From Rhynchopus sp. YZ270_cl-10 (Eukaryota), in contig OZ037837.1 of the NCBI GenBank assembly GCA_964035575.1, positions 930,001 through 994,000 of the forward strand: DNA of 64,000 bases. Reading direction: 5' to 3'. The position numbers and the translations under genes are program-made. Under the pieces are notes generated by a model. That model had not been told where the DNA came from. It worked only from the letters and a program-made list of their open reading frames with translations, and did not search any database. Numbering within the stretch: position 1 is the first letter of the stretch; every line of letters starts with the position of its first letter. Positions 20,695 to 59,331 of the stretch are shown here, one piece after another.

Positions 20695-21443
20695 ACCCAG
20701 TACCCAGTACCCAGTACCCAGTACCCAGTACCCAGTACCCAGTACCCAGTACCCAGTACCCAGTACCCAGTACCCAGTACCCAGTACCCAGTACCCAGTA
20801 CCCAGTACCCAGTACCCAGTACCCAGTACCCAGTACCCAGTACCCAGTACCCAGTACCCAGTACCCAGTACCCAGTACCCAGTACCCAGTACCCAGTACC
20901 CAGTACCCAGTACCCAGTACCCAGTACCCAGTACCCAGTACCCAGTACCCAGTACCCAGTACCCAGTACCCAGTACCCAGTACCCAGTACCCAGTACCCA
21001 GTACCCAGTACCCAGTACCCAGTACCCAGTACCCAGTACCCAGTACCCAGTACCCAGTACCCAGTACCCAGTACCCAGTACCCAGTACCCAGTACCCAGT
21101 ACCCAGTACCCAGTACCCAGTACCCAGTACCCAGTACCCAGTACCCAGTACCCAGTACCCAGTACCCAGTACCCAGTACCCAGTACCCAGTACCCAGTAC
21201 CCAGTACCCAGTACCCAGTACCCAGTACCCAGTACCCAGTACCCAGTACCCAGTACCCAGTACCCAGTACCCAGTACCCAGTACCCAGTACCCAGTACCC
21301 AGTACCCAGTACCCAGTACCCAGTACCCAGTACCCAGTACCCAGTACCCAGTACCCAGTACCCAGTACCCAGTACCCAGTACCCAGTACCCAGTACCCAG
21401 TACCCAGTACCTAGTACCTAGTACCTAGTACCTAGTACCTAGT
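20695..21443. repeat. (ACCCAGT)n 7-bp satellite, ~107 copies, ending in ACCTAGT variants
   Basis: Perfect tandem array; the last ~5 units share a C>T variant. Confidence 0.98.
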
Positions 21444-21933
21444 GCCCACCAGTCCCCTAGTGCATTTTACCTGTCATGACCAGACCTGACGCTAACTTTT
21501 GGGTTTTTGGGAAATCGTGGGATGATGGTCGAATATGGGGGGGTCCGAGACGACAGTGGCTTGCGACGACCACTACCAGGTGTTCAGGTTGCTGCAACCA
21601 AACTATGTCATGGGTGGGGTGGGTTGCAAAGCTTGCGCCGCAGGCGCACGGTACGCTACTTTTATTCTTTCGACGTATCTTTTTCTCACTCCTCGTTGGG
21701 TTCTACGAGGTCCTACCGTCAAATTGTGGGGGTCACAACGCGCAGCAAAGTTCGCAGCTATGCAAACTGCCCCCACGTTTACTTTGCACTTTACCCTCAG
21801 TGGTCAAGTACTTACCATATATTACACACAAAACCTGAAAGGGTTAAATCCGGTGGTACCCATTTTCCTAGTACCCATTTTCGTTAATACCCATTTTTCA
21901 AAAGTGGGTACTAACGAAAATAAAAAGTGGGTA

Positions 21934-22627: not shown

Positions 22628-22701
22628 TATTAAAGAAAAGAAAAAATGGGTATTATCGAAAATATTTTGGGTACCTGGGTACTGGGTACTGGGTACCCAG
22701 G

Positions 22702-23156
22702 TACCCAGATACCCAGATACCCAGATACCCAGATACCCAGATACCCAGATACCCAGATACCCAGATACCCAGATACCCAGATACCCAGATACCCAGATAC
22801 CCAGATACCCAGATACCCAGATACCCAGATACCCAGATACCCAGATACCCAGATACCCAGATACCCAGATACCCAGATACCCAGATACCCAGATACCCAG
22901 ATACCCAGATACCCAGATACCCAGATACCCAGATACCCAGATACCCAGATACCCAGATACCCAGATACCCAGATACCCAGATACCCAGATACCCAGATAC
23001 CCAGATACCCAGATACCCAGATACCCAGATACCCAGATACCCAGATACCCAGATACCCAGATACCCAGATACCCAGATACCCAGATACCCAGATACCCAG
23101 ATACCCAGATACCCAGATACCCAGATACCCAGATACCCAGATACCCAGATACCCAG
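22702..23156. repeat. (TACCCAGA)n 8-bp satellite, ~56 copies
   Basis: Perfect tandem array. Confidence 0.98.
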
Positions 23157-24774: not shown

Positions 24775-26247
24775 CCCAGTACCCAGTACCCAGTACCCAG
24801 TACCCAGTACCCAGTACCCAGTACCCAGTACCCAGTACCCAGTACCCAGTACCCAGTACCCAGTACCCAGTACCCAGTACCCAGTACCCAGTACCCAGTA
24901 CCCAGTACCCAGTACCCAGTACCCAGTACCCAGTACCCAGTACCCAGTACCCAGTACCCAGTACCCAGTACCCAGTACCCAGTACCCAGTACCCAGTACC
25001 CAGTACCCAGTACCCAGTACCCAGTACCCAGTACCCAGTACCCAGTACCCAGTACCCAGTACCCAGTACCCAGTACCCAGTACCCAGTACCCAGTACCCA
25101 GTACCCAGTACCCAGTACCCAGTACCCAGTACCCAGTACCCAGTACCCAGTACCCAGTACCCAGTACCCAGTACCCAGTACCCAGTACCCAGTACCCAGT
25201 ACCCAGTACCCAGTACCCAGTACCCAGTACCCAGTACCCAGTACCCAGTACCCAGTACCCAGTACCCAGTACCCAGTACCCAGTACCCAGTACCCAGTAC
25301 CCAGTACCCAGTACCCAGTACCCAGTACCCAGTACCCAGTACCCAGTACCCAGTACCCAGTACCCAGTACCCAGTACCCAGTACCCAGTACCCAGTACCC
25401 AGTACCCAGTACCCAGTACCCAGTACCCAGTACCCAGTACCCAGTACCCAGTACCCAGTACCCAGTACCCAGTACCCAGTACCCAGTACCCAGTACCCAG
25501 TACCCAGTACCCAGTACCCAGTACCCAGTACCCAGTACCCAGTACCCAGTACCCAGTACCCAGTACCCAGTACCCAGTACCCAGTACCCAGTACCCAGTA
25601 CCCAGTACCCAGTACCCAGTACCCAGTACCCAGTACCCAGTACCCAGTACCCAGTACCCAGTACCCAGTACCCAGTACCCAGTACCCAGTACCCAGTACC
25701 CAGTACCCAGTACCCAGTACCCAGTACCCAGTACCCAGTACCCAGTACCCAGTACCCAGTACCCAGTACCCAGTACCCAGTACCCAGTACCCAGTACCCA
25801 GTACCCAGTACCCAGTACCCAGTACCCAGTACCCAGTACCCAGTACCCAGTACCCAGTACCCAGTACCCAGTACCCAGTACCCAGTACCCAGTACCCAGT
25901 ACCCAGTACCCAGTACCCAGTACCCAGTACCCAGTACCCAGTACCCAGTACCCAGTACCCAGTACCCAGTACCCAGTACCCAGTACCCAGTACCCAGTAC
26001 CCAGTACCCAGTACCCAGTACCCAGTACCCAGTACCCAGTACCCAGTACCCAGTACCCAGTACCCAGTACCCAGTACCCAGTACCCAGTACCCAGTACCC
26101 AGTACCCAGTACCCAGTACCCAGTACCCAGTACCCAGTACCCAGTACCCAGTACCCAGTACCCAGTACCCAGTACCCAGTACCCAGTACCCAGTACCCAG
26201 TACCCAGTACCCAGTACCCAGTACCCAGTACCCAGTACCCAGTACCC
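24775..26247. repeat. (CCCAGTA)n 7-bp satellite, ~210 copies
   Basis: Perfect tandem array with the same unit as 20695-21443. Confidence 0.98.
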
Positions 26248-26718
26248 AAAATAATTTCGATAATACCCATTTTTTCTTTTCTTTAATACCCACTTTTTAT
26301 TTTCGTTAGTACCCACTTTTGAAAATGGGTATTAACGAAAATGGGTACTAGGAAAATGGGTATTAAAGAGAAAAACCCAACCTGAAAATGGCTGTAAAAA
26401 CTGATACATGCATTTTAGGTCAAAAATACTCAGTTCTGAGCGCAAAGTGACCCCATCACAGCACGCAGAGGCTCCGGAGCACTGAAATATTTTTTTATTT
26501 TTTTTTATTTTTTGGGGTGAAAATTTCTGGGGGGAAATTTCTGGCCACAAAAAACCACCAAAAAAAAATACACAAAATAATTTTTGCACCCCCCTTAAAA
26601 TTAGGGGTAAATTGGGTACTTCTTGGGTCTTTCTAGGGTATACACCCTAGCCCTATACAGCCACACCATTAAATAATACCCTTTTTTTTGGGTTCAGCCA
26701 CACCAAGGTGTCGTTGAG

Positions 26719-27238
26719 AAATCTTAACGTACACTCTCTGTTGATTCTAAAACGGGGGAGGGTAAAAAAGGCGTGAAAGGTAAATTGGGGAAGAGGTTGA
26801 AAAGTTGGAACGCTTCCTCACCCCAGATCACACTACAATACAAAGGTTTGGGTTTGAATAGGGTGGGTTCTTCTGACGATGAAACCTACTCCCTTCTAAA
26901 CTTTCTTTTTTTTTTTTTTTTTTTTTTTTGAAAAATAAATAAAACTCCTCTCGAAATTGTTCAAGATTGAACTGAGAGAAAGAAGAAACCCCAAACCCTC
27001 CCAGACCAAACGGTCTAACCTGTTGTATTGACATAGTGTGTGGGGAGAATGAGGAGCACAAGAATCGTCTTCGCGCATACTAAAAGATTTCCTACGATAT
27101 GTCACAAGTGTCATGTCACCGAAAAATCTTAACGTACACTCTCTGTTGATTCTAAAACGGGGGAGGGTAAAAAAGGCGTGAAAGGTAAATTGGGGAAGAG
27201 GTTGAAAAGTTGGAACGCTTCCTCACCCCAGATCACAC
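26719..27238. repeat. ~115-bp direct repeat pair (26719-26833 and ~27124-27238) bracketing a SINE-like copy
   Basis: aaatcttaacgtacactctc...ccccagatcacac occurs twice. Confidence 0.85.
26906..27126 (-). mobile_element. Poly(A)-tailed SINE-like retroposon, copy 1
   Basis: ~195-bp body apparently identical to 31583-31777, with the same 5' end and a long poly(T) on the + strand. Diverged partial copy at ~57331-57440. Confidence 0.7.
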
Positions 27239-30250: not shown

Positions 30251-30306
30251 ATCAGGGGTTCCGCTACCGTATAAGATTCAATTTGGTTGAGGGTCGAAGG
30301 TGTGGA

Positions 30307-31496
30307 AATAAACAACAAATGGTTCTTATACCAAAGTTGTTGTGGCGGCGTAAGTGTATAAAATAAACAACAAGAGGTTCTTATACCTAGTTGTTGTGGC
30401 GGCGTAAGTGTTGAAAATAAACAACAAGAGGTTCTTATACCTAGTTGTTGTAGCGGTGCATGTGTATAAAATAAACAACAAGAGGTTCTTATACCTAGTT
30501 GTTGTGGCGGCGTAAGTGTATAAAATAAACAACAAGAGGTTCTTATACCAAAGTTGTTGTGGCGGCGTAAGTGTTGAAAATAAACAACAAGAGGTTCTTA
30601 TACCAAAGTTGTTGTGGCGGCGTAAGTGTATAAAATAGACAACAAGAGGTTCTTATACCTAGTTGTTGTAGCGGCGTAAGTGTTGAAAATAAACAACAAG
30701 AGGTTCTTATACCAAAGTTGTTGTGGCGGCGTAAGTGTATAAAATAAACAACAAGAGGTTCTTATACCTAGTTGTTGTAGCGGCGTAAGTGTTGAAAATA
30801 AACAACAAGAGGTTCTTATACCTAGTTGTTGTAGCGGTGCATGTGTATAAAATAAACAACAAGAGGTTCTTATACCTAGTTGTTGTGGCGGCGTAAGTGT
30901 TGAAAATAAACAACAAGAGGTTCTTATACCTAGTTGTTGTAGCGGCGTAAGTGTTGAAAATAAACAACAAGAGGTTCTTATACCTAGTTGTTGTAGCGGT
31001 GCATGTGTATAAAATAAACAACAAGAGGTTCTTATACCTAGTTGTTGTGGCGGCGTAAGTGTTGAAAATAAACAACAAGAGGTTCTTATACCTAGTTGTT
31101 GTGGCGGCGTAGGTGTAGACAATAAACAACAAGAGGTTCTTATACCAAAGTTGTTGTGGCGGCGTAAGTGTATAAAATAAACAACAAGAGGTTCTTATAC
31201 CTAGTTGTTGTGGCGGCGTAAGTGTATAAAATAAACAACAAGAGGTTCTTATACCTAGTTGTTGTGGCGGCGTAAGTGTTGAAAATAAACAACAAGAGGT
31301 TCTTATACCTAGTTGTTGTGGCGGCGTAAGTGTATAAAATAAACAACAAGAGGTTCTTATACCAAAGTTGTTGTGGCGGCGTAAGTGTATAAAATAGACA
31401 ACAAGAGGTTCTTATACCTAGTTGTTGTGGCGGCGTAGGTGTAGAAAATAAACAACAAATGGTTCTTATGCCAAAGTTGTTGTGGCGGCGCAGGTG
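30307..31496. repeat. 54/55-bp minisatellite, ~22 copies with interspersed variants
   Basis: Unit AAATAAACAACAAGAGGTTCTTATACCTAGTTGTTGTGGCGGCGTAAGTG(TATA/TTGA); no unique spacers. Confidence 0.95.
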
Positions 31497-31563
31497 TCCT
31501 CGTACGACGGAGAAGCGTCATGACAGTGAGAATACCTCACTTGTTCACATGTTCTGTACTTCA

Positions 31564-31777
31564 TTTTTTTTTTTTTTTTTTTGAAAAATAAATAAAACTC
31601 CTCTCGAAATTGTTCAAGATTGAACTGAGAGAAAGAAGAAACCCCAAACCCTCCCAGACCAAACGGTCTAACCTGTTGTATTGACATAGTGTGTGGGGAG
31701 AATGAGGAGCACAAGAATCGTCTTCGCGCATACTAAAAGATTTCCTACGATATGTCACAAGTGTCATGTCACCGAAA
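31564..31777 (-). mobile_element. Poly(A)-tailed SINE-like retroposon, copy 2
   Basis: Matches 26930-27126 and is preceded by poly(T). Confidence 0.7.
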
Positions 31778-32146
31778 AAAACAAACAACGGACGCGCTGT
31801 GTGAAAAAACGAGTGCTTCTCTGCGCGTGATATTTTGTGGGGGAGAATAAAACATTGTGAAAAAAGCTTGTTGCATTCCCACTATCGTTTCCGCTGCGCT
31901 CTCACTAACGTTTCCACTCCATTCGGTTTTCTCTTACTTAGAAAAATAGTGTAAAAAAATGAACTGTCAATAATAAAACTACCCCAATCGCCCTAACACG
32001 CCTCCCCCCTGTAAAGGGGTTCTGTCTCTGTGGGTCTCTCTGCGACTGTCTTCCACCACACATTACCTCCAGTGCAGCACGTGCACCAATACGCTTGCTG
32101 CCGTTGCGATGACTCCAGGGCTGGGCTTCGGAGGGACACGTAGGGC

Positions 32147-35100
32147 TCACGCAGCACCATCCAAAAGAATCCGTCTTGCTAGTTCAGGCTCCACAGTGTC
32201 CCTCCCGGGGCAGCTGGATACGCGAGGAACTGTTGCAGTCGCACCGATGACTCTCTTCAGCCTCGTCTTCCCATCAATCGTGCCGTCTGCGTTGCAGATG
32301 CCCCATATGCGCACTGTGCTGTCGAGATAGCCGCAGATAACTTCACGCCCGTCAGGACTCACAGCAAGACTGCGCAATTTAGTAGACTGCTCAGCAATCA
32401 CTGCGACCTCCTTGCCAGTCGTGATGTCCCATACGTGCACGGTGCGGAAACTTCGACACGACACGACGTGAGCTCCATCAGGAGTCACTGCAACCCGTGA
32501 ACAATTCCGTGGTGTGGTGAGCACTTCCTTCCCGCTGGCCACCTCCCACACGTGGGTCCTCTGTTCGCAGCAGGACACCACATGCCGTCCGTTGGGTGTC
32601 AGCGCGATGCCCCAGACGCCAGCTTTGTGCCCATCAAACACCAGTGTCTCTTCCCCCGTGTGAAGCTTCCACATGCGCACAGCACGCTCCCCTGAGGAGC
32701 AGGACACAGCATGGCAGCCATCCGGGGTCACCGCCACACCCCTGACAGCCTCGGTGTGCCCTGCAAAGCGTGCAACCTCCTTGCCGTCGGCAATGCTCCA
32801 CACACTGACAGCTTTATCGAGCACAACATACAAGACCTGCACCCCATCCGGTGCCACTGCCACACAACGCTGGCCCTCCAGTGCACACACTTCTCCTCCC
32901 GTACGAACGTTCCACACACGCACGGTGCCATCTGCAGAGCAGGACACGACACGAGACGCATCTGGGCACAGAGCCACCTCATGCACAGTGTCTGTGTGCC
33001 CCGTGAACACGCGTGTCTGCTTGCCGGTGCACGGATCCCACATACGCAACGTGTGGTCCCCGCAGGATACGATGGTTCCGTCGGACGCCACTGCCACGCC
33101 GTTCACAGCACCGGAGTGTCGCTCTGGGCGCAGTGCCTCCTTCCCGGCAGATAGGCTCCACACACGCGCAGTGCTGTCGTCACCGCAGGACACAGCATGG
33201 CGGCCGTCTCGTGTCACTGCAACGCAGTTCGCAGAAGAAGTGTGCCCCTCCAAGCGCATGACCTCCTTCCCTGTGGATGTGCTCCACAGGTGCACAGTGC
33301 CGTTGCTCGAGCCTGCCACCACGTGTGCTGCATCAGGCGTCACTGCTACTGCGCACAGCACTGGGCCAGCCGGGAACGCCATCACTTCACTCCCGGACGA
33401 CAGACTCCACAGACATGCGGTTCCGTCTGTCGCACAAGAAACCATATGGTGCCCATCCAGCGTGACTGCCACTGAGAGCACCAGCACTCCTGTGCAGGAA
33501 TCCTTGCGACGGTACGATATGACTTCTTTCCCAGTCGCCAGATCCCATACACGCAGCGCCGGCCCTGAGCACGTCACAACTCGACTTCCATCTGGCGTGA
33601 TCGCAAGCCGGTGTGCCACTCCCTCGAGTCCAAGCACCTTCTGCTTCTTCCCTGTGGAAAGATTCCACACACGCACAGTGCTGTCTTGAGAGCACGAAAC
33701 AACTTTAGAACTGTCGGGAGTGACTGCCACATCGGTGACACGGCCACTGTGCCCTTTCAAGACACACGCTGCCTTCCCAGTACGGATAACCCACACACGA
33801 ATCGTTGTGTCCCACGAACAGGAAACTATGCGCGACCCATCCGGTGTCACTGCTACAGCAGATATGCACTTAGGGTGTGCTTTGAAGCCCAGGACCAGCT
33901 TCCCAGAAGACATGCTCCACACATGCAAGGTGCCGTCGTAAGTGGCTGTAATAACTTTAGTGCCGTCAGGTGTCACTGCTACACCTGCTACCCCAGCATC
34001 ATGACGTAGTGTGGGAAGTGGTGTGCCAAGGGAGCAGTCGGGCAGCAGCGTGCCACCCATGTCGCAGGTGTGGAACTCAGTGTGCTCCAGCCAGCAGTTC
34101 GAGAAGGAAGCGCCCGTCAGCGCCGTCTCCACAAACAGAGACCCGCGCAGGTCGCAGTTCGACACACGGATCCTCTTCAGGTCCTCACCGCTCACAGGGA
34201 TGCGTGCACGTGCCAGCAGTGCTGCTGCATTCGACCCTGCTGTCACAGCACCCTCACCTGCACTGCCACGTGTCGCCTTCACAGTCGCAAGCAGCTCTGT
34301 GCAGGCACGTTCGTACAGCACACTGTCTCCACACACCAGCGCCGCAAAGAACCCAAGCACACGCTGCGAGTCCTTGCTGAAGCTCCGCTGCACCAGCGTC
34401 CCCAGTGTCCCTGCTGGATCACGTGCAAGCCGCCGTGCTGCAAGGTGCTCCCCAAGCGACTTGTGCCGGAATGTGAACGCACTCCGCTCCTCGCCAAAGT
34501 CCTCAATCCGGAACGGCAGGCAGCGGAAGCACGCATCACGCACAGCCTCACACACACCGTGCTGCGAATCAAGAATCTGCGACGCCACACCCACAGTCCC
34601 CTGCCACTCGTTTGTCTCCAGCATCCTGCATGCAACAAGCTCCCCTGCACGCACCACATCCTCCAAAGACACATCTGCAACAGCAACTGCACCAGACGCC
34701 ATCTCCTTCTTCGTCCACGTCTCCAGGTAGGTCTCGTAGATCACCTCCTCAGAAGCCTTCCCGCTGCACTGTGCGTGGCACGCCATGTGCAACACAAATG
34801 GGTTCCGCAGCTGCACAAGTCCCTCAACGTCCTCCTCACGCACGAACACTGCTCGCACTGCTTCCTCTGATGTGCTGTCCTTCTTGTGTTCCTTCTCCCA
34901 GGCTGTGTTTGCACGCTCGATGTACGTTCTCGCATCCACCTCTGTGAACGGCTGCATGTACACAGCACGCACACTAGCTCCGCATACACCAGACGGGAAA
35001 ACATTGACGCTCTTCAGGTACTCACCACGCACAGTCACAACAACGCTGCAGTGTGCCTCCACCCACGGATGCCGGCACAGAAGGCCACCTTCAGCCACCA

Positions 35101-37195
35101 CAGCATCCACATCCTCCTGCGTCAGCCCAACCTCGTCCAGCGAGTCCAGCACCAGCACCACCTCGTACGTCTCCGCAAGGTACGCACGGTCCGCCTCCCG
35201 CAGCGCAAACGACTCCAGCACAAACCTGTCCAGTCCTCCCTTCTCAAGCAGGTGCTGCTTCACAGTTGGTAGAGCCACAAACACAGGGAAGTACGGCTTC
35301 GCATCTCCATCCTTGTTGCTCTCGCTGCTGTCCTTCTTCGCAGATGATGCAAGGTCGCTCAGAATTGCAATCGAAGCAGACGTCTTCCCACTCCCTCCTT
35401 CTCCGATCACACACAGCACACCACACGTCCCTTGTCTTTCTTCTCTAGCCTCCACATCAGGCTTGCCCTCTGTGTCCGCTTCTGCCTGTGTGCACACGGA
35501 AGACATCTGCTTCACACCTCCACGTGCATGAAGCCACATCCGCACCTCCTCCATCAGCGGACGTGCCTCCGACTCATCCACACGTGTGTCGTCCCCCACA
35601 CGCCCCTCCACGTACTGCGCAAGGTAGTCCTCGAAGAACGCGACTGTGTGTCCCATCACCTCCTGCAGCGCACCCACCTGCTCAGCTGCACTCGTCTCAC
35701 CCACACCAGAACACACCTCCTGCATCACAATCACGTCAAAGCGCAGCCCCATCATCCGCAGCAGCGTCGGCGAAAGCTTCCACTGCACCCGGTACTCGAT
35801 GTTCGCTGTGTACAGCAGCTCGTCCTCCGAAGCATACACAGACGAGAACTTCACGTCTGCAGCACCCTCCTTCGCCACCACCACAAAGAACGTGCCACCC
35901 TTCCCGTACATGAAGCTCCGAGCCACATCCCGCTTCAGTGTTGTCGACGTGAAGCAGTTCCACACAATGTGCGTCCCCAACGCGTACTTCGCAGACACGT
36001 TCACATTGATCCCACGGAACACAGTCCGCAGCTGCTTCCGACGGCTCCCAATCAGCCGGTCCAGACCACGGATCAGCGGCGCAAAGGTCGCAATCACGTG
36101 CAGCTGCGGAGGTGCAGGTGACAGCTCAAACACGTTCGGTGCTGTCTTCTCAGGTGTCCCCTTCCACTCCTTCACCGCAGGCAGCTGCCCCACAGCACGC
36201 ATCGCAGTGTTCATCGTCATGTACAGCGCAAGCGACTGTGACTCAGCAGCACTTCCGTGGTGGTCCAGCACAGCCCGCTCCGTCAGACGGATGTACCGAA
36301 GCCTCCCGTCAGTCCCTTTCGCAATCTGCGGTGTCCTGTGCTCGTCACACACAACATCCCCACCGCTGTCCAGCACATACTCCACGCAGTCGGAAGTGAA
36401 CAGGAACCCTGACAGCAGCAACTCAAACGGGTCGCGTGCCGCCATCCAGTCCTCCACCTCCACGTGCCCACCACTTGACTCTGCAGCCCCCCTCCGTCCT
36501 CTGATGTCCTCCAGCAGACGCTTGCACACCACACGGAACCCCGCCTCCATGTGCCGCACGTGTTCGTCTGTGTAGCCCAACGGCGGATCCACCTTTGGCA
36601 GACCACGCAGCCAGCACAGCAGGTCTTGACCTCCACTGCTGTTGTTGTTGTTGTCCTCCTTCTTCTGCAGCCACTCCACCTTCCGTCCATCTGTGTGCCG
36701 CAGTGCACCTGTGTCCCCGTCAAGATCGTCCTCTCCCAGCTGTCTGTCTGCAGTCGAGGTACTCGTGTCTTTCGCCGTGCCCATGTGGGGGTCAGTAAGA
36801 GGTACTGGCGTTGCATCTCCACCGCTCCGTTCCACCGTCTCACCTGTTGTTGTTGTTGTTGTCGCAACACCGTCAGTGAGGTACACCTGCACAGCATCCT
36901 CCACCTCACCAAGGATCTCTGCTGCGTGCACCCCCAGCTCCGCCTCAAGTCGCCCCCGCACATCCGCGTCCCTGTGCTGCAGTGCGTACCACAGCGGCAC
37001 CTTCCCGTCCCTGTCACGCACGTTCCCTGCACCGTTCTGCACAAGAAACCGCACTGCCTCCACATCCCCCGCAATCACAGCACTGTGCAGCATTGTCCTC
37101 CCGTCCACACTGTCCACTGCGTCCACGGGCCTCTCCTTCTCTGTGATTGCCTTTGCAATCTCGTCCTTTTCAGTCTTCGACGCTCCGGACCCCAT
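32147..37195 (-). CDS. NLR-like STAND protein 1: ankyrin - R-S-E ADP-ribosyltransferase - NACHT - pentapeptide repeat - 14 WD40 (~1682 aa)
   Basis: Start MGSGASK. ANK DGRTMLHSAVIAGDVEAVRFLVQNGA. ART VFRG...WNCFTSTT...SEDELL. Walker A GEGGSGKT, Walker B VLVLDSLDE, VVTVR, LRNPF, FTFRHKSLGEHLAA. Pentapeptide EDLKRIRVSNCDLRGSLF. 14 WD40 units counted. Confidence 0.92.
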   Translation of the reverse strand: MGSGASKTEKDEIAKAITEKERPVDAVDSVDGRTMLHSAVIAGDVEAVRFLVQNGAGNVRDRDGKVPLWYALQHRDADVRGRLEAELGVHAAEILGEVEDAVQVYLTDGVATTTTTTGETVERSGGDATPVPLTDPHMGTAKDTSTSTADRQLGEDDLDGDTGALRHTDGRKVEWLQKKEDNNNNSSGGQDLLCWLRGLPKVDPPLGYTDEHVRHMEAGFRVVCKRLLEDIRGRRGAAESSGGHVEVEDWMAARDPFELLLSGFLFTSDCVEYVLDSGGDVVCDEHRTPQIAKGTDGRLRYIRLTERAVLDHHGSAAESQSLALYMTMNTAMRAVGQLPAVKEWKGTPEKTAPNVFELSPAPPQLHVIATFAPLIRGLDRLIGSRRKQLRTVFRGINVNVSAKYALGTHIVWNCFTSTTLKRDVARSFMYGKGGTFFVVVAKEGAADVKFSSVYASEDELLYTANIEYRVQWKLSPTLLRMMGLRFDVIVMQEVCSGVGETSAAEQVGALQEVMGHTVAFFEDYLAQYVEGRVGDDTRVDESEARPLMEEVRMWLHARGGVKQMSSVCTQAEADTEGKPDVEAREERQGTCGVLCVIGEGGSGKTSASIAILSDLASSAKKDSSESNKDGDAKPYFPVFVALPTVKQHLLEKGGLDRFVLESFALREADRAYLAETYEVVLVLDSLDEVGLTQEDVDAVVAEGGLLCRHPWVEAHCSVVVTVRGEYLKSVNVFPSGVCGASVRAVYMQPFTEVDARTYIERANTAWEKEHKKDSTSEEAVRAVFVREEDVEGLVQLRNPFVLHMACHAQCSGKASEEVIYETYLETWTKKEMASGAVAVADVSLEDVVRAGELVACRMLETNEWQGTVGVASQILDSQHGVCEAVRDACFRCLPFRIEDFGEERSAFTFRHKSLGEHLAARRLARDPAGTLGTLVQRSFSKDSQRVLGFFAALVCGDSVLYERACTELLATVKATRGSAGEGAVTAGSNAAALLARARIPVSGEDLKRIRVSNCDLRGSLFVETALTGASFSNCWLEHTEFHTCDMGGTLLPDCSLGTPLPTLRHDAGVAGVAVTPDGTKVITATYDGTLHVWSMSSGKLVLGFKAHPKCISAVAVTPDGSRIVSCSWDTTIRVWVIRTGKAACVLKGHSGRVTDVAVTPDSSKVVSCSQDSTVRVWNLSTGKKQKVLGLEGVAHRLAITPDGSRVVTCSGPALRVWDLATGKEVISYRRKDSCTGVLVLSVAVTLDGHHMVSCATDGTACLWSLSSGSEVMAFPAGPVLCAVAVTPDAAHVVAGSSNGTVHLWSTSTGKEVMRLEGHTSSANCVAVTRDGRHAVSCGDDSTARVWSLSAGKEALRPERHSGAVNGVAVASDGTIVSCGDHTLRMWDPCTGKQTRVFTGHTDTVHEVALCPDASRVVSCSADGTVRVWNVRTGGEVCALEGQRCVAVAPDGVQVLYVVLDKAVSVWSIADGKEVARFAGHTEAVRGVAVTPDGCHAVSCSSGERAVRMWKLHTGEETLVFDGHKAGVWGIALTPNGRHVVSCCEQRTHVWEVASGKEVLTTPRNCSRVAVTPDGAHVVSCRSFRTVHVWDITTGKEVAVIAEQSTKLRSLAVSPDGREVICGYLDSTVRIWGICNADGTIDGKTRLKRVIGATATVPRVSSCPGRDTVEPELARRILLDGAA

Positions 37196-38930
37196 CTTCC
37201 TGATGTGTACCTTGTTTGTTTGTTCACAGGTTGGTGTGCTGTCCCTGTTTGTGTGCTGTGATGTGTTCTGGGCAGTCTTGCTGTGTCCAGCACCCAAGCA
37301 GAGTCCTGCCTCCACACACAACTCTGCACACTGTTCCCACTCACCCCACCCCACTGACAGCGACCACACAGTACCACCACAACAATACAGTACCTCCCAT
37401 AGGACACTCTCCGCTGTCTCCACCCACCCCACCCCAGCAAGAACGCCAAAGGTGCTCTCGTGCTGCAACCACAGACAAGCTGAGGTGCCAGAAAAATGCA
37501 CGAAAACTGCGTCTCCTCTGCCTCTGTCTTCTCTCTATGCAACGCAAACACCTGGTCGTCGACCGACCCAGAGCTGGACCTGCAAGCATCCTTTGTCTAA
37601 AGAAACACCACAGACGCTTTCATCACGACCCCAAGAGAGAGTGGGGTGGGCATACACACAGAGAGGTGGGGATGTGGACAGTGGGTGGGGTCATTCGACG
37701 AATCGACACTATATAAACCCGACTGCGCAGTGCCAATACCAATGACAGCAACAGAGTCATGGTTAATATACTAGATGAGGGGGTAACCCGGTGTGGTGCA
37801 AGAGACAACAAACAGTTAGGGGGGGGACTCTGGGAGAGAGGTGGGGTGGCTGTATTCCCTCACATTCGTGCGGGACGGGGTGCTCCATCGTATTTTCCAA
37901 AAACGTACACCTGGGGACTCTGGGAGAGAGGTCCTTTTGTATTGCTCTTGAAAGGTTTAGGTGTATTAGCACTGCACTGAAGCAGCGCGATATAGAAGTA
38001 CGCAATGTCTGTTTACTCCACAACGCCTGCAAGAATGGAGCCTTTCCTCAACAGACCACATCTCATCCTCAATATGGTTTTACTGTGTTTTCAGCGTTTG
38101 ACAACATAATGAAAAACACCGTCCGTCTTTTGTTTAGTTGGTACGCTACCCACATCCTACGCACTGACAGCCAGGGGGCTTTTCTGGGGTAAGTTTAGCA
38201 TTTTGTTCATATAACAAAATCCTTTTCCACCCCCAAGTCGCACAGGAAGAAAAGTTTGGCAAAGACGAAGCGAAGGCTCGCGTACTTCATCACCAAAATA
38301 GAATCTGACTATTGACTTCCGGATATGACAGATGAGTAAAAAGATTTTGTTTTGCCTATAGACTACTATCACTAGATAGCAACCACGATTTTTTCTTCAG
38401 TAAATGGAAGCAGTACTAGAACAGAAGGAGTGTAAAAAGAAAAGAAAGAAAAAAACCAAACAACTTTTTTTTCCGTTTGTCGCTCTGCAAAGTTGTTGTG
38501 TTTTTTCCTTCGCAAAGTTCTGGTATGCAAGAGACAACAAACAGATACAAGGAGAGGAGCTCTTTTGCTTTGTTTTTTTTTCAAAACTTTGTTATAGTGT
38601 GGACACCCGAGGATGAGCGCCACCATGTTTTCCTTTTGAACTTGGCCACCATCCCTTTGTTCACAACTTCTCCAAGTGGTACGACTCTTTTGCGGCAGGC
38701 AACCGTATGAAGTGTCATTTCCACTGGGCGGTAGAAGGGCGGGCATTTACGTTCTTTTTCCAGTGTTCGTTTTGAAGGGGATGTGGGAGAGTTTCTGCAG
38801 CCCTGGCCCTGTTCAAAGAGGCCCTCCGTCCGTGAACTGAAAACAGAGAGATGTCTCAAAACATCCCAAAAAAAACTGCAAAAAAAAAGAAAAAGTTTAT
38901 AATTAGGCTAGTTGACGTCACGGACATTCG

Positions 38931-39150
38931 GGTATGGGAGGGTATGGGAGGATTTGGGAGGGTATGGGACAGTATGGGACGGTATGGGACAGTATGGGAC
39001 TGTATGGGACAGTATGGGACAGTATGGGACAGTATGGGACAGTGTGGGAGGATTTGGGAGGGTATGGGACAGTATGGGAGTGGTATGGGAGGGTATGGGA
39101 GGGTATGGGCGGGTATGGGAGTGGTATGGGAGGATTTTTGGAGGTTTGGG
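38931..39150. repeat. 10-bp GGGACAGTAT/GGGAGGGTAT degenerate array
   Basis: Seen directly. Confidence 0.9.
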
Positions 39151-39717
39151 AGTGGTTTGGGGGTCGTGCGTGCACTTAGGGTAGCTCGACTTTTTTTTCG
39201 TTTCCCGCTCGCTGACCCTGAAAAAAAAATGTGCGCGCGCGCAAAAAAAAAGTTTTTCCTGAAAAAAAGTTGACAAAAAAGTTGTGGGAACAGGGTGATC
39301 CTGTGGGTTTTTTATATAAAATCGCCTCAGGGGCCCCAAAAAACGGGTGACCCAAAACACAGTTTTTTGGCATTTCCGGAATCCGTCCAGAAAGTGGTGG
39401 GGTCGATGTCGAAAATTGGACAATTTTTTGACCACTTAAATTTTTGAAAATATGAGCCCAGTCACTAATAGCTGGGGCCCATTTTCGGCCAAAAAATGCT
39501 GCTGAAAAAAAATTTCAGGTGAAAATTTTTCACCCCAAGACATACCGCGATTGGCATTTCCGGAATCTGTCCGCGCTGTGGTGGGGTCAATTTGCCGTCG
39601 TCCAGCTGCAAATTCACAAATTATGGCCTTTCCGTATACCTCAAACCCAGACCGGCCCGGTTTGCAGTTCTCGTGTACAATTCGCACGCAAAAGAGAGCA
39701 ACTCCCACACCGATTAG

Positions 39718-39921
39718 GGGGACGGTACGGGACGGTATGGGACGGTATGGGACAGTATGGGACGGTATGGGACAGTGTGGGAGGGTATGGGAGTGGTATG
39801 GGAGGTACGGGAGGGTATGGGACGGTATGGGACAGTATGGGAGGGTACGGGAGGGTATGGGAGGGTATGGGACGGTATGGGGGGATTTGGGAGCGTTCGA
39901 GGGCGGTACGGGATGGTACGG
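39718..39921. repeat. Second 10-bp GGGAC(A/G)GTAT array, same orientation
   Basis: Seen directly. Confidence 0.9.
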
Positions 39922-40441
39922 AACAGGATTTCCCAGAAAATTCCTAAACCGACCCGTGGCGTCAACTAGCCTATTATAAGATGATCCTAAGCCTCTCGTG
40001 CTTAGTCACCTTAAATAATGAATACCACCAAAATTCCCAGTGTGCCATCATGTAAAAAGCCAATAAAAGGCCATCGTATTCCCACTCCAACGTTACGCGC
40101 AATATGATCACATGGCACATAGAAAGATAAAAGATTTGAACTAAAAACTGACCAAGATACGAAGATCTAAGTCTCGGGAGCAAAGTGATACAAGAATAAA
40201 GAGCGTGGGGATCAAAGAAGCAAAAAAAAGCAGAAAAAAAAGCGAGAAAAAAAACAGAAAAAAAATACATCGACACTGAGCTGACCACAACCCTTCCGCA
40301 AGTCATGAAACAAAGTTGCATTAGTAGGAAGTCATACAAATCCTTCCTTTTGTGGGAAAGTGCAAATTCAAAAATGAATACTAAACATGCAGAAATCAAA
40401 CAAGTTGTTGCACAGCTAGCCTCTCGAAAGAGGCACGTACC

Positions 40442-41653
40442 TCACATGCAGACACAATCGCGTTTGCTCTTCTTCTTGAGGCCAAGGCTGTCCACGGCAC
40501 TGCTCGATCCGGTGATGTTGATGCTGCAGTTACGTAAGTCGCAATAGTTAAGTCCTCCTCGCCCGATATGCGTCACACTCGCCCACCCAGACCAGTCCAG
40601 TGTTCGCAACGACCTGCAGTGGGTGACGAAGTCGTCGCCAATGTGGGTGAGATTATTCCACCCAGAAAAGTTGAGTTTTTTCAGTGCGTTGCAGCCGAAG
40701 AGGAAGCGGTTGCCTATGCGCGTGACATCCTTCCACGTGGAGAGGTCCAACTCGGTCAATGCTCGGCAGCTGAAGAGGAAGTCAGCTCCAACGTGTGTCA
40801 CGTTGTGCCACCCAGATAAGTCCAGTGTCGTTAATGCGCTGCACTCGTAGAGGAAGTAGTCTGCAATGTGCGTCACATTGCTCCACCCAGAGAAGTCCAG
40901 TGCTGTCAACGAACTGCAGTTGCGGAGGAAGTGGTTGCCGAACTGCGTCACATTGTTCCACCCAGCAATGTCAAGTGTTTGCAATCCGCTGCAGTTGTAG
41001 AGAAACGAGTTCTGGATGTGCGTCACATTGTTCCACCCAGACAAGTCAAGCCCGGTCAACGCACGGCAGCTGTAGAGGAAGGCAAACGCAATGTGCGTCA
41101 CATTGCTCCACCCAGACAAGTCAAGGGTTCGCAAAGCGCTGCAGCGCAAGAGGAAGTAATCCCCGGTGTGCGTCACATTGCTCCACCCAGATAGGTCAAC
41201 AGTGTGCAATAAACTGCAGTCGTGGAGGAAGTTGTCGCGTATTGCAGTCACAGCTAACACACCACTGAGATCCAGTTCTTCGAACGTGCTGCCCCCTAAG
41301 GTGTTAGGGGGGATCTCAGTAACAACTTCCGCCTGAAGAAACAAGTGAAGCAGCTTGGGATCTGCAAGACCTTCGAACCTCTCTGGCGTCAGGATCTCAC
41401 CCAAGTCACGAAGAGCTGCAATGGCGTCGTCCTTCTGCGACTTCGTCTTCGTCAGCACAACTGTGTCCCCAGCACTCAGCTGCGTCGTGTCGTCTCCTTC
41501 TGCCATCACCTTCCCGCCAAAGCTCACGTCAAAGCCGTCTTCGCACAACGCTGCTGCAGACGCTACCTTCCGCCGTATGTCCGCAGTTGTATCATCCACA
41601 TCCACCTCGATTGTGTACTTCTCTCCGTCAAAGCTCTCCGCACATATTTCCAT
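40442..41653 (-). CDS. UBL + 24-aa LRR protein with C-terminal polybasic CaaX motif (~403 aa)
   Basis: UBL-like MEICAESFDGEKYTIEVDVDDTT...; ~11 LxxLDLSGWxNVTHIxxxFLxxC repeats; ends KKKSKRDCVCM*. Confidence 0.88.
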   Translation of the reverse strand: MEICAESFDGEKYTIEVDVDDTTADIRRKVASAAALCEDGFDVSFGGKVMAEGDDTTQLSAGDTVVLTKTKSQKDDAIAALRDLGEILTPERFEGLADPKLLHLFLQAEVVTEIPPNTLGGSTFEELDLSGVLAVTAIRDNFLHDCSLLHTVDLSGWSNVTHTGDYFLLRCSALRTLDLSGWSNVTHIAFAFLYSCRALTGLDLSGWNNVTHIQNSFLYNCSGLQTLDIAGWNNVTQFGNHFLRNCSSLTALDFSGWSNVTHIADYFLYECSALTTLDLSGWHNVTHVGADFLFSCRALTELDLSTWKDVTRIGNRFLFGCNALKKLNFSGWNNLTHIGDDFVTHCRSLRTLDWSGWASVTHIGRGGLNYCDLRNCSINITGSSSAVDSLGLKKKSKRDCVCM

Positions 41654-42145
41654 GGCTTTGTACCTCTCTATTTTGTGCAGGTGTTTTGGGTGGGGCAGGA
41701 ACAAACAACAACAGAATTCGGTTTGGGTACCTACTGACTTAGTTGCTTTGTTTTCCCACAAGACAGCCAAATCAAGGAGAACTTCGTACGTAAAGGGGGG
41801 TGTGGTGTGGTGTGCAAGAGACAACAATAGTGTACAGATGTGGAAGTGGCAGTGCGTCTCACGCTCCCTAACTCACGTGGTCAACACGAACTAACATAAA
41901 CATCCACAAAACGAATAGAACACATGTGTAATCGTAGCACATCTTGGAAAAGATGTGAACATGAACAGACAGCACACGTGGTGCACTGTCGGTGTAACAC
42001 CTGGACCAGAAGCGTCTTCTGTCCTCGCACAACGCACCCGCAGTGGCATGAGGGCACCACCGCACGAGGCAGTGTCAACACCATTCGTGCTCTGCATGCG
42101 TCTTGGAAAAGAGGCAAACACAAAGAGCAAGTACGAACAGTGCGC

Positions 42146-45100
42146 TCACTCCTTGCTGTCCAAAAGAATCCGTCTCGCAAGTTCAGGTTCCACAGCATCA
42201 GCATTGCGACAGCCTAATGCACGAGGAACTGTTGGTGGGACACCGATCACTCTCTTCAGCCGCAACCCAGCAATCGTGCCGTCTTCCCCAGTGCAGATGC
42301 TCCACACACGCACGGTCTTGTCATCGCAACTACACATTACTTCGCGTCCCTCGGGGCTCACAGCAATACTGATGAAAGAAGCACCATGCCCTTGGATCGC
42401 TGCCACCTGCTCACCAGTGGTCATGCTCCACACACGAATAGTACCGGCACAGTGCCCAACGCAGGACACCACGTGAGCTCCATCAGGTGTCACTGCCGCT
42501 CCCAACACTGGAGCAGGATGCTCCAAGGTGAAGACCTCCTTCCCGCTGCCAACATCCCACACACGCACAGTTTTGTCCTTCGAGCGTGAAACAACACGGC
42601 CTCCATCGGGAGTCACAGCCACACCTTCGGCATAAGATGTGTGTCCTTCGAACACCATCGTCTCTTCTCCAGTGTGAAGTTTCCACATGCGTACGGTCTT
42701 GTCATCGGAGCACGACACCACATGCACTCCATCAGGAGTCACCGCCACTCCTTTGACGACGTCTGTGTGCCCTGTAAATACTGCCACTTCTTTGCCGGTC
42801 AGCATGCTCCACACACGGATAGTGTCATCGTGCATACACCAAAAGCCCGTCACCACGTGAGATGCATCGGGAGACACTGCCACGCGTCTCAGACCTGGCG
42901 ACTCCTTCAAAAAAACCGCAAACTCACTAGAATCTGAGCGTAAAGTCACTTCTTTCCCCGTCGCAACGTTCCGCACATGCACACTGCTTTCGACGTCATC
43001 GGAAGAGCAATGAACCTCATGAGATCCATCTGGGAACACTGTCACAGCAATACGATTCTTTGTGTCTGGTTCAAACACCTGTGTCTGCCTGCCGGTGGAT
43101 GCGTTCCACATGTGTATCCTCTTCTCACTGCGCGAAATGATAGATCCATCAGGGGTCGCTCCCACAGAATCCACTGAGGCTGGGTGTGCTTCGAAACCTG
43201 GTGTCTCCTTCCCGGTCGTGATGTTCCACACTCGGACCGTTTGTTCGTAGCTAGCGCATGAAACCACGTGGCGTCCATCTGGTGACACTGCCACTGCCTC
43301 TACACTATCGGTATGCCCTTGCAACGTCGTCACCTCCTTCCCGGTCGAAATGCTCCAAACGTGCACCATGCCGCTGCTGGATCCAGCCACTACGTGACAT
43401 CCATCGGGAGTGACTGCCACGCAAATCAAACAGTCGTCTCCATGTAACACCGTCACCTCTGCCCCTGTTGAGAGGTTCCAGAGATGTGCGTCCTTCTCAT
43501 AGCACGAAACAACATGGCATCCGTCGGGGGTGGCTGCCAGCTGGTTCGAAGACTCCACACAGCAAGGCCACTGCCTCTCCTGCTTCCCCGTGGCCAGATC
43601 CCATACGCACAGCTCCTCCTTAGAGCATGTCACAATGTTACTTCCGTCCATCGTGACAACCATGCTGCGAGCGCCAGGCGACGTTATTGCCAGCACTTCC
43701 TTCCCCGTCGAGAGATCCCACACACGCACGCCATCTCCAAACGAAGAGGAAACAACTTTAGAACTGTCGGGAGTGACTGCCACTTTGAGCACGTGGTGCT
43801 CGTGGCCTTCCAAGACAAACAAAGTCTCCCCAGTGTGCAAATTCCACACCCGCACAGCTTCATCCTGAGAGCAGGAAACTATGCGGGTTCCGTCAGGTGT
43901 CGCTGCCACTCCCCATACGCCAGCCGAATGTCCTTCCAAGACCAATGCTTCTTTCCCAGAGGACATGCTCCACACACGTATGCTTCCATCAGAGCAACCT
44001 GTCACCATTTGCGTGACATCGGGTGTTATGGTCACGCAATACGCTGTAACATACAGTGTGGGAAGTGGTGTGCCAAGGGAGCAGTCAGGCAGCAGCGTGC
44101 CACCCATGTCGCAGGTGTGGAACTCAGTGTGCTCCAGCCAGCAGTTCGAGAAGGAAGCGCCCGTCAGCGCCGTCTCCACAAACAGAGACCCGCGCAGGTC
44201 GCAGTTCGACACACGGATGCCCTTCAGGTCCTCCCCACTCACAGGGATGCGTGCACGTGCCAGCAGTGCTGCTGCATTCGACCCTGCTGTCACAGCACCC
44301 TCACCTGCACTGCCACGTGTCGCCTTCACAGTCGCAAGTAGCTCTGTGCAGGCACGTTCGTACAGCACACTGTCTCCACACACCAGCGCCGCAAAGAACC
44401 CAAGCACACGCTGCGAGTCCTTGCTGAAGCTCCGCTGCACCAGCGTCCCCAGTGTCCCTGCTGGATCACGTGCAAGCCGCCGTGCTGCAAGGTGTTCCCC
44501 AAGCGACTTGTGCCGGAACGTGAACGCACTCCGCTCCTCCCCAAAGTCCTCAATCCGGAACGGCAGGCAGCGGAAGCACGCATCACGCACAGACTCACAT
44601 ACACCGTGCTGCGAATCAAGAATCTGCGACGCCACACCCACAGTCCCCTGCCACTCGTTTGTCTCCAGCATCCTGCATGCAACAAGCTCCCCTGCACGCA
44701 CCACATCCTCCAAAGACACATCTACAACAGCAACTGCGCCAGATGCCATCTCCTTCTTCGTCCACGTCTCCAGGTAGGTCTCGTAGATCACCTCCTCAGA
44801 AGCCTTCCCGCTGCACTGTGCGTGGCACGCCATGTGCAACACAAACGGGTTCCGCAGCTGCACAAGTCCCTCAACGTCCTCCTCACGCACGAAGACTGCT
44901 CGCACTGCTTCCTCTGATGTGCCGTCCTTCTTGTGTTCCTTCTCCCAGGCTGTGTTTGCACGCTCGATGTACGTTCTCGCATCCACCTCTGTGAACGGCT
45001 GCATGTACACAGCACGCACACTAGCTCCGCATACACCAGACGGGAAAACATTGACGCTCTTCAGGTACTCACCACGCACAGTCACAACAACGCTGCAGTG

Positions 45101-57753: not shown

Positions 57754-59331
57754 TCACTCGCGTAAGTGGTCTGGTAGCCTGCAGAGTACAGCATTGCTGC
57801 ACTTGTCCTTTCCATGCAAGGTCTTCAACGCTGGGCACCAGTTGAGGAAGGAGCCACCAATGGTAGTGACAGTTTGCAACCCACTTAGGTCAACTGCCAC
57901 CAACGATGTGCACCCGAAGATGAAAGATTCACCAATCATGATGACTCCTTGCAATCCACTTAGATCAACTGTCAACAATGATGTGCACCCGTAGAGGAAG
58001 TAGTCCCCAACCATGGTGACAGCGTGCAATCCACTCAGGTCTAGTTTCGTCAAAGCTGTGCAGCCACAAAGTACCTGGTTCCCAATCACAGTCACAGCAG
58101 ACGCATGACTGAGATCAATGCACGTCACTGCAGTACTCGAGGCGAAGCAGTCTGGAATCGCAGTCGCAGCTCCTGCCTGCAGGAGCAAGCAAGCCACCTT
58201 CGGATCAGTCACCTGATTTAACCTTTCTGATGTAAGTGTTGTCTCACCCAACGCACGAAGTGCTGCAATGGCATCCTGCTTCCTCCTCTGTGTATTGACT
58301 TGCGTTAGAACAACCCTGTGACCCCTCAACTGCACCACATTCTCTCCTGCTACAATCGCTGAACTTCCGAAACTCATGTCGAAGCAGCCTTCAAGCAACC
58401 CCACTGCAGACGCCACCTTCCGACGCAAGTCCCTGCCCGTGTCATCCACACTCACCTCAATCTCGTGTTCCACTCCATCCAACCCCTGCACAAGGACAGG
58501 CACAACAAGCGCAGACAACTGGGCAAGGGCGTCGTGCACGTTCGAAACAGGCAGCTTCAAGGAAAACGTTGCGTGTGGGTGTGCAGCACCCACAAGGCGG
58601 TGGCGGTCTCCACTCGCCGCCATGCTGTTGATGCTCCGCACAACGGCCTGCGACTCTGTGACCGCACGCAGCACCTGGTCGTCCCCAAGCTGGCACACCG
58701 CCTCGCACTCAGCAATCATGTGTCCTGCCTTCGCAACAAACGTCTTCAGCGCACACACCTCCCCTTCACGACTGAGTGCCTGTGTGAGGAAGCTCCGTGC
58801 CACCACCTCCTCGCACACGACTTCACTGCGCGACACATCCTCACGCATCACGAGGTGCTCGACGTGTGTCTGCAGGAGAAGGTCTTTGTATCTGCCCTCT
58901 GTGGGTGGGAGTGCCTCAAGCACACGGCACTTCTCCTCTGCAGCAGTCCGCTGTGTTGTCAGGTCTGACACGTGTGAGTGGAGGATGTCGCGCTCGTATT
59001 TCATGTAGTCCGTGATGACAACTGTCTTGTGTCCCGTATGTTCAAAGTGAGCACAGCACATGCAGATCAACGCGTCTCCACACGCAGGGTCTACACAGAC
59101 GACGCACCGCACTTGGTCGGGGTGTTGTGTACACTTCAACGACGCCCCGTACGCAGTCACAGAAGCGCGATGTGCCTCACGGTCACGTGGCCTTGGGTGG
59201 CAAGCGTCATAGCACGCAGGTGTGTCGCAGAAGAACAGATCCACGCACATCCCGCACTGCAGCTGTGCAGGCACGCCACAGTTCTCACAGCTCGGCATCT
59301 GTGGTGCGGTGGGCTGCGTGTCAGACCCCAT
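57754..59331 (-). CDS. B-box/B-box/coiled-coil - UBL - LRR protein (RING-less TRIM-like, ~525 aa)
   Basis: Zinc fingers CENC..CGMC..FFCD..C..CH..H and CTQH..CVVC..ICMCC..HTGH; helical region; UBL VLVQGLDGVEHEIEVSVDDTG...; 24-aa LRRs. Confidence 0.82.
   Translation of the reverse strand: MGSDTQPTAPQMPSCENCGVPAQLQCGMCVDLFFCDTPACYDACHPRPRDREAHRASVTAYGASLKCTQHPDQVRCVVCVDPACGDALICMCCAHFEHTGHKTVVITDYMKYERDILHSHVSDLTTQRTAAEEKCRVLEALPPTEGRYKDLLLQTHVEHLVMREDVSRSEVVCEEVVARSFLTQALSREGEVCALKTFVAKAGHMIAECEAVCQLGDDQVLRAVTESQAVVRSINSMAASGDRHRLVGAAHPHATFSLKLPVSNVHDALAQLSALVVPVLVQGLDGVEHEIEVSVDDTGRDLRRKVASAVGLLEGCFDMSFGSSAIVAGENVVQLRGHRVVLTQVNTQRRKQDAIAALRALGETTLTSERLNQVTDPKVACLLLQAGAATAIPDCFASSTAVTCIDLSHASAVTVIGNQVLCGCTALTKLDLSGLHAVTMVGDYFLYGCTSLLTVDLSGLQGVIMIGESFIFGCTSLVAVDLSGLQTVTTIGGSFLNWCPALKTLHGKDKCSNAVLCRLPDHLRE

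What the first reader, a model, noticed from the sequence alone, without database searches (positions are those of the whole stretch)
32147..44055. Sharp constant/variable boundary between the two NLR paralogues exactly at the start of the WD40 sensor
Seen: the copies are almost base-for-base identical from ~220 bp upstream of the ATG through Ank-ART-NACHT-pentapeptide, apart from scattered SNPs and one ~60-bp linker indel. Identity ends at ...LGTPLPTL (34008 vs 44055), after which they diverge heavily while both keep 14 blades. Differences cluster before strand A and in the B-C loop of each blade. Inference: gene conversion or domain swapping homogenises the signalling module while the sensor diversifies, as is established for fungal HNWD (het-e/het-d) genes.
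Basis: partly seen in the sequence, partly recalled or inferred. Interest (0 to 1): 0.85.

Follow-up and report, generated by a model that had tools for sequence, protein, structure and literature searches.

The report
Shuffled NLR-like sensors in a protist
Two neighbouring genes, likely from a diplonemid protist, share an almost identical signalling half but carry very different sensor halves, most likely because recombination copies signalling halves between about 60 related, likely immune, receptor genes while the predicted binding face of each sensor diversifies.

Summary
Genes A (32147-37195) and B (42146-47182) are 98.4% identical up to 34008/44055 and 62% after it. Synonymous divergence jumps from 0.038 to about 1.1, so protein constraint alone cannot explain the step. 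Both belong to a family of 66 retrieved Ank-ART-NACHT-pentapeptide-WD40x14 proteins; named relatives are euglenozoan. B carries A's N-module but a WD40 of another clade (AU p=6e-5). Two other members are exact two-parent mosaics, one breaking inside NACHT, so the junction is a homology edge, not a fixed swap site. The six most variable of 37 blade positions are six of the seven high-dN/dS positions listed for fungal HNWD repeats. Positive selection is likely but not formally shown. The HNWD analogy fails for conversion, because HNWD homogenises the WD repeats and here blades are 36% alike. The zebrafish NLR-B30.2 family is the closer precedent. Nine literature searches, seen mostly as listings, showed no ART-effector NACHT-WD40 family. 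Immune function is inferred only.

The parts
32147..37195 (-). Gene A (1682 aa), intronless ORF: Gly2 (myristoylation-type start, recalled motif), Ank, ART, NACHT, pentapeptide, 14 WD40, tail; WD40 of a deep-branching lineage
42146..47182 (-). Gene B (1678 aa), same architecture; N-module like A, WD40 and tail of the P0055/P0028/P0063 clade; likely the recipient of the conversion
34008..37427 (-). Homogenised tract in A (232 bp of 5' flank to Leu1063)
44055..47413 (-). Homogenised tract in B
36962..37105 (-). Ankyrin repeats (about aa 31-78 of A)
   Evidence: Pfam Ank_4 E=9e-11
36780..36839 (-). 60-bp linker segment present in A, absent in B; this linker varies in length across the family
35714..36628 (-). 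R-S-E type ADP-ribosyltransferase fold (about aa 190-494); R394, S417, E457, E459 kept in 61 of 61 aligned members
   Evidence: Z 12.9 HopU1, 12.8 ART2.2
34256..35695 (-). NACHT NTPase with helical and winged-helix domains; Walker A and B intact in 61 of 61
   Evidence: (NLRC4 E=2e-9)
34025..34195 (-). Pentapeptide beta-helix; a low-confidence hinge at aa 1058-1061 follows, just before the identity edge
32297..34006 (-). 14-blade WD40 sensor of A (predicted double propeller)
42293..44053 (-). 14-blade WD40 sensor of B (end approximate)
32150..32296 (-). C-terminal tail, more conserved again across the family (median 0.89); one strand plus a helix in the model
47414..47804 (-). About 306 bp present in B's 5' flank and absent from A's, then 86 bp of 93% similarity to A 37420-37505

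Best explanation
A and B are members of a large family of likely immune, NLR-like receptors, in which homologous recombination keeps the Ank-ART-NACHT-pentapeptide half nearly uniform while the WD40 half keeps older, divergent sequences; B most likely received a ~3.4-kb copy of A's half by gene conversion. Shown: the step in synonymous divergence, the conflicting trees, exact mosaics elsewhere in the family, variation concentrated at top-face positions, and intact catalytic motifs. Inferred: the tract stopped at Leu1063 because homology falls to about 62% there and because the next codons are the first specificity sites of blade 1, whose overwriting would be selected against; no dedicated swap site is needed. 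Inferred from established STAND biology, untested here: ligand binding in the cleft of the double propeller triggers NACHT oligomerisation and activates the N-terminal ART, which would ADP-ribosylate a target or deplete NAD as a defence or cell-death output.
For: dS 0.038 vs 1.10. Fourfold sites differ at 21 of 575 vs 90 of 188, and the 5' flank is shared too. A+B are sisters in the N tree (0.995) but apart in the WD tree; AU p=6e-5 on 18 of 61 rows. Informative sites in the trio B/A/P0055 switch from B=A to B=P0055 at aa 1063/1064. A and B share 37 residues rare in the family, from aa 19 to 1062; 15 are shared with P0006 and 8 with P0064, both deep WD lineages like A. P0057 equals P0083 across the N-module and P0015 across the WD40; P0029 equals P0051, then P0086 from inside NACHT. 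Best N partner equals best WD partner in only 7 of 63. Seven genes on one contig are more alike in N (0.969 vs 0.944; 0 of 3000 permutations) but not in WD (0.684 vs 0.689; p=0.60). Mean family identity is 0.285 at top-face sites vs 0.82 at exposed bottom loops. A/B second-codon-position differences at top sites 55 of 84 vs fourfold 77 of 162, p=0.010.
Against: DNA was available for A and B only; all family results are from proteins. Positive selection is not formally shown: pN(top) minus pS(non-top) = 0.08, 95% CI -0.006 to 0.167, near saturation, and the family estimate rests on scaling dS from one pair. Most of the family-wide step (0.95 vs 0.71-0.78) could be a rate difference alone; A/B is the extreme case (WD/N distance ratio 43, rank 1 of 1770, median 6). 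The exact mosaics could be assembly joins. B's junction is not formally bridged. Nearest WD neighbours also lie on the same contig more often than chance (29 of 60 vs 12.6), so local duplication contributes. No ligand, expression or activity data for this organism.
Confidence: 0.75

Rival explanations
1. Opposite direction: A and B arose by local duplication and one copy then had its sensor replaced by a WD40 from another paralogue (sensor import rather than N-module export).
For: Gives the same mosaic and dS step. P0057 and P0029 look like single-crossover chimeras of the unequal-crossover type.
Against: A and B differ in their 3' flanks and beyond about -310 bp, so B would need sensor, tail and both flanks replaced. 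The rare N residues point to A's deep lineage as their source.
Confidence: 0.1
2. A programmed or site-specific exchange at the pentapeptide/WD40 hinge swaps sensor cassettes.
For: The B breakpoint sits at aa 1063/1064 and P0057's lies in aa 957-1064. The edge coincides with a structural hinge.
Against: P0029 breaks inside NACHT (between aa 628 and 834) and P0039/P0087 near aa 580. Unrelated Ub-LRR genes show the same step. No recombinase was seen among the 15 ORFs scanned.
Confidence: 0.06
3. Assembly artefact: collapsed or chimeric repeats.
For: The N-module is a high-copy repeat. B's junction is not formally bridged.
Against: The N-modules differ at 54 substitutions with a purifying signature (dN/dS about 0.1 in ART, NACHT and helical domains) and about equal private changes on both copies. 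A's junction, with its A-specific base, is bridged in two runs of one study, which may be the assembly's own source.
Confidence: 0.05
4. No recombination: strong purifying selection on the N-module and relaxed selection on the WD40.
For: N-module dN/dS is low. Top-face WD40 positions are exposed and are the least constrained in any propeller.
Against: Synonymous sites and the non-coding flank show the same ~30-fold step. Trees conflict. Exposed bottom loops stay conserved.
Confidence: 0.04

Closest known systems
Fungal HNWD/NWD NLRs (Podospora het-d, het-e, het-r)
   Same: Effector-NACHT-WD40 layout. Variable sites at repeat positions 10, 11, 12, 14, 30, 32 (PMC12222747 passage), as pairs flanking a conserved site in the d-a loop and b-c turn (PMC1805685 passages).
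   Different: ART instead of HET effector; pentapeptide helix present. No high internal repeat conservation (36% vs over 80%). Blade number appears fixed at 14 in the members inspected. The homogenised part is the N-module, whereas in HNWD it is the repeats.
Zebrafish NLR-B30.2 family (PMC4852459, passages)
   Same: Large clustered family; gene conversion keeps NACHT homogeneous within groups; high dN/dS in the C-terminal recognition domain.
   Different: The sensor there is B30.2, itself converted across groups; multi-exon vertebrate genes; no ART. Here an intronless WD40 double propeller in a unicellular eukaryote.
Plant NBS-LRR clusters with sequence exchange between paralogues
   Same: Chimeric paralogues in clusters (search listing only; otherwise recalled).
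   Different: NB-ARC and LRR; not examined in detail.
Bacterial NACHT-pentapeptide(-WD40) proteins, mostly cyanobacterial
   Same: Nearest Atlas clusters carry NACHT plus pentapeptide (scores 0.83-0.86, leads only). Top propeller match is 2ymu.
   Different: No ART or Ank shown in those clusters; homology and transfer not tested.
R-S-E ADP-ribosyltransferases (ART2.2, HopU1, XopAI folds)
   Same: Fold (Z 12-13) and R / S-T-T / E-x-E motifs.
   Different: Fused in a STAND receptor; no secretion signal noted (not tested with a predictor); substrate unknown.

Membership tests
NLR-like STAND (NACHT) receptor | Central NACHT NTPase with Walker A/B and winged-helix motif | tested here: met
   Motifs in 61 of 61; fold matches NLRC4, NLRP3, NOD2; Pfam NACHT below its cut-off
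NLR-like STAND (NACHT) receptor | N-terminal effector and C-terminal superstructure repeats | tested here: met
   ART fold and 14 WD40
NLR-like STAND (NACHT) receptor | Ligand-triggered oligomerisation and an immune or death output | not testable with these tools
   No functional data
HNWD | N-terminal HET domain | tested here: not met
   Residues 1-500 are Ank, linker and ART; no HET hit
HNWD | High internal conservation of WD repeats (over 80%) | tested here: not met
   Inter-blade identity mean 0.34-0.36, maximum 0.62, in the 3 proteins tested
HNWD | Hypervariable positions 10, 11, 12, 14, 30, 32 (and 39) | tested here: met
   These six are the most variable of 37; position 39 is not (0.80). 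Numbering set from recall and checked against the spacing
HNWD | Codon-level positive selection at those sites | tested here: inconclusive
   Two sequences only; CI touches neutrality; indirect estimate above neutral
R-S-E ADP-ribosyltransferase | Fold and R, STS-type and E-x-E motifs | tested here: met
R-S-E ADP-ribosyltransferase | Enzymatic transfer of ADP-ribose | not testable with these tools
   Needs an assay
Ectopic gene conversion / recombination between paralogues | Tract with lowered synonymous divergence and discordant phylogeny | tested here: met

The most novel reading that the evidence does not exclude
A unicellular euglenozoan runs a germline-encoded, recombination-shuffled immune repertoire: 60-80 NLR-like receptors that couple interchangeable ADP-ribosyltransferase/NACHT modules to positively selected WD40 sensors which converged on the same six contact positions as fungal HNWD receptors. 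The same constant-head/variable-repeat design extends to neighbouring Ub-LRR, Ub-like-propeller and B-box-LRR genes, which would make this region an immune gene complex.
Probability: 0.45. Interest if true: 0.85.

Novelty: new variant of a known kind. Interest (0 to 1): 0.68.

Why it matters
How free-living protists sense viruses, bacteria or symbionts inside the cell is largely open. This family offers a concrete candidate: many sensors, one conserved enzymatic output, and a measurable signature of arms-race evolution. An ART as the effector of a NACHT-WD40 receptor would add a new output to the NLR list. Variation at the same propeller positions as in fungi, but with the opposite half homogenised, shows two routes to a diverse WD40 sensor pool. 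Related genes are transcribed in cultured diplonemids (EukProt hits), so the idea can be tested.

Tried and rejected
No whole genome is held, so paralogue DNA, gene order and site-wise dN/dS could not be obtained. A JGI metagenome scan gave 42 pattern matches and 0 confirmed relatives. No RNA holder was listed among 12 runs; this is no evidence on expression. B's first blades had no cover at 97% in X1-X3; a hole proves nothing. Blade-class dN/dS was mis-anchored in three blades and was redone; only the fourfold and Ub-LRR figures are used. Mosaicism inside the WD40 in the trio P0057/P0083/P0084: 28 runs vs 33 expected, p=0.13, not shown. A PDB sequence search with the ART region gave no hit under E=0.18. 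The Atlas gave only leads under 0.9. The profile search failed on size; the single-protein search gave 276 unnamed relatives, 47 at E<=1e-30, not analysed further. Three look-ups of earlier findings returned nothing. The Diplonema papillatum genome paper's main text has no mention of NACHT, WD40, ADP-ribosyl or immun- (PMC10161547, term search); its supplements were not read and may bear on novelty. No complex prediction was run.
Full report
Observation. The window holds two intronless ORFs on the minus strand, A (32147-37195, 1682 aa) and B (42146-47182, 1678 aa). They align at 94-100% per 100 columns from about 232 bp upstream of the ATG to 34008/44055, with one 60-bp in-frame indel, and at 48-75 matches per 100 columns afterwards. 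Over 1043 N-module codons nucleotide identity is 98.4%, dS 0.038, dN 0.009. Over 561 WD40 codons it is 62.2%, dS 1.10, dN 0.40. Fourfold-degenerate sites differ at 21 of 575 against 90 of 188. Each gene has 14 blades.

Assembly check. A's junction is crossed without mismatch by unitigs in X1 and X3, including a base that separates A from B. These two runs belong to one study that may be the assembly's source. B's junction is reached by one X4 unitig, 29 bases past the edge, short of the tool's 31-base rule. The N-module differences have dN/dS near 0.1 in ART, NACHT and the helical domains and split about evenly between the copies, which collapse or sequencing error would not give.

Anatomy. 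Pfam finds ankyrin repeats, an ART domain, a weak STAND/NACHT and pentapeptide repeats. AlphaFold models (pLDDT 92 and 82) match NLRC4, NLRP3 and NOD2 for the NTPase, R-S-E ADP-ribosyltransferases for aa 190-494 (HopU1 Z 12.9, rmsd 3.9, 205 aligned; ART2.2 Z 12.8, rmsd 2.7, 188 aligned), and double propellers such as 2ymu and Apaf-1 for the sensor. A low-confidence hinge at aa 1058-1061 lies just before the identity edge. ART residues R394, S417, E457, E459 and the Walker A/B residues are kept in 61 of 61 aligned members.

Family and organism. The N-module search returned 79 proteins. With cluster members I aligned 66, including A and B, on 19 contig lengths, 29 of them on one 1.54-Mb contig. 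That they come from one genome is inferred from shared contig lengths and from unitig depth about 60-80 times that of A's unique WD40 in X2 and X3; the tool warns that depth is no copy number. The named relatives are transcriptome proteins of Hemistasia (label Hpha), Lacrimia lanifica, Flectonema neradi and Apiculatamorpha spiralis at 23-37% identity, with ART and NACHT motifs largely kept. The organism is therefore likely a diplonemid; no marker gene was tested. In 57 core members (four distant and four truncated or rearranged left out), median pairwise identity is 0.95 for aa 200-1062, 0.78 and 0.71 for the two propellers, and 0.89 for the tail. Column identity falls from 0.90 at Leu1063 to 0.28 at 1064 and 0.06 at 1066.

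Recombination. A and B are sisters in the N tree, but B's WD40 groups with P0055, P0028 and P0063 (99/98) while A's branches deep. Forcing them together is rejected (AU p=6e-5; 18 of 61 rows). In the trio B/A/P0055, informative sites switch at aa 1063/1064. A and B share 37 residues found in at most 3 other members, spread from aa 19 to 1062; 15 are shared with P0006 and 8 with P0064, both deep WD lineages. Together with unrelated flanks, this makes B the likely recipient of one ~3.4-kb tract. Elsewhere P0057 has 0 substitutions to P0083 in the N-module and 0 to P0015 in the WD40, with the break in aa 957-1064. P0029 follows P0051 and then P0086, breaking inside NACHT. Best N and best WD partner coincide in 7 of 63. 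Seven genes on one contig are homogenised in N (0 of 3000 permutations) but not in WD (p=0.60). Against over-reading: A/B is the most extreme of 1770 pairs (ratio 43, median 6), WD neighbours also cluster by contig (29 of 60), and exact mosaics could be mis-joins.

Sensor variation. In 56 members the six most variable of 37 blade positions are 12, 14, 11, 30, 10 and 32 (identity 0.17-0.40). Their mean is 0.285 against 0.82 for exposed bottom-loop positions. PMC12222747 lists 10, 11, 12, 14, 30, 32 and 39 as high-dN/dS positions of HNWD repeats (passages and introduction read). PMC1805685 places two pairs of selected codons in the d-a loop and b-c turn (passages), with the same spacing as my 12/14 and 30/32; my numbering was set from recall and checked this way. 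In A vs B, top sites have pN 0.65 against pN 0.26 and pS 0.57 elsewhere. Second-position differences exceed fourfold-site differences (55 of 84 vs 77 of 162, p=0.010), but the bootstrap interval of pN minus pS includes zero. An indirect scaling suggests that close paralogues differ at top sites (0.60-0.65) more than neutral codons would (about 0.4-0.55). Positive selection is likely, not proven.

Mechanism. Shown: exchange of N-modules among paralogues, with sensors retaining old lineages. Inferred: exchange initiates and resolves anywhere in the 3.2-kb near-identical module and stops where homology ends; tracts that enter blade 1 would erase specificity residues. The same step occurs in an unrelated Ub-LRR pair in the window (99 codons at dS 0.028, then 178 at dS 0.90) and more weakly in a Ub-like-propeller pair, which favours a general process over a dedicated site. 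By analogy with STAND receptors (established knowledge, untested here), ligand binding would oligomerise the NACHT and switch on the ART.

Comparison and novelty. It works like an NLR family but is not an HNWD: no HET domain, no internal repeat conservation, and the opposite half is homogenised. The closest evolutionary precedent is zebrafish NLR-B30.2 (PMC4852459, passages). Nine searches (listings seen) and term look-ups in PMC10161547, PMC4986451, PMC3482391 and the TeTIR preprint 10.64898/2026.09.21.753143 showed no description of an ART-NACHT-WD40 family or of NLR-like expansions in diplonemids. The library lacks most subscription papers and no supplements were read, so prior mention is not excluded. 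Verdict: real, produced by recombination, a new variant of a known kind; interest 0.68.

Noticed in passing
window 8404-9465 and 53790-54842 (-); also 40442-41653 and fragment 52062-52909: Ubiquitin-like + BspA-type LRR genes; the first pair has a near-identical 99-codon head (dS 0.028) and diverged LRRs (dS 0.90), the same constant/variable design as A/B.
   Followed up: partly
window 48686-49857 and 50765-51937 (-): Pair of genes with a short, possibly ubiquitin-like head and a beta-propeller; 93-100% over the first 300 bp, then mostly 73-95%. The 48686 copy has a frameshift after the head.
   Followed up: partly
window 57754-59394; 63472-64000 with 61068-61760 (-): Gene with Cys/His-rich B-box-like motifs (judged by eye), coiled coil, Ub-like and LRR (TRIM-like layout); a second copy appears split by an insertion with an RNase H-like ORF at 62180-63415.
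   Followed up: no
window 10658-18253 (-): 2531-aa intronless ORF with a weak ART hit at aa 834-960 (E=1e-4), otherwise unannotated.
   Followed up: no
window 20695-21448, 22694-23156, 24775-26248, 30306-31497: Near-perfect 7-bp and 8-bp satellites and a 54-bp tandem array between the gene clusters.
   Followed up: no
proteins P0003 and P0089 (contig of 185,426 bp): P0003 (2932 aa) has three pentapeptide/junction copies, two nearly identical, suggesting internal duplication of the NACHT-pentapeptide unit.
   Followed up: no
proteins P0015, P0020, P0022, P0043, P0047, P0056: An alternative N-terminal 30 residues occurs in six members, P0015 as a hybrid of both types; further patchwork exchange.
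   Followed up: no
window 26911-27126 and 31564-31779: 216-bp exact duplicate, one copy just downstream of gene A.
   Followed up: no
window 5199-7865 (-): 888-aa ORF with a galactose-binding-like domain, a long Pro/Thr/Ser repeat stalk and hydrophobic C-terminal stretches.
   Followed up: no
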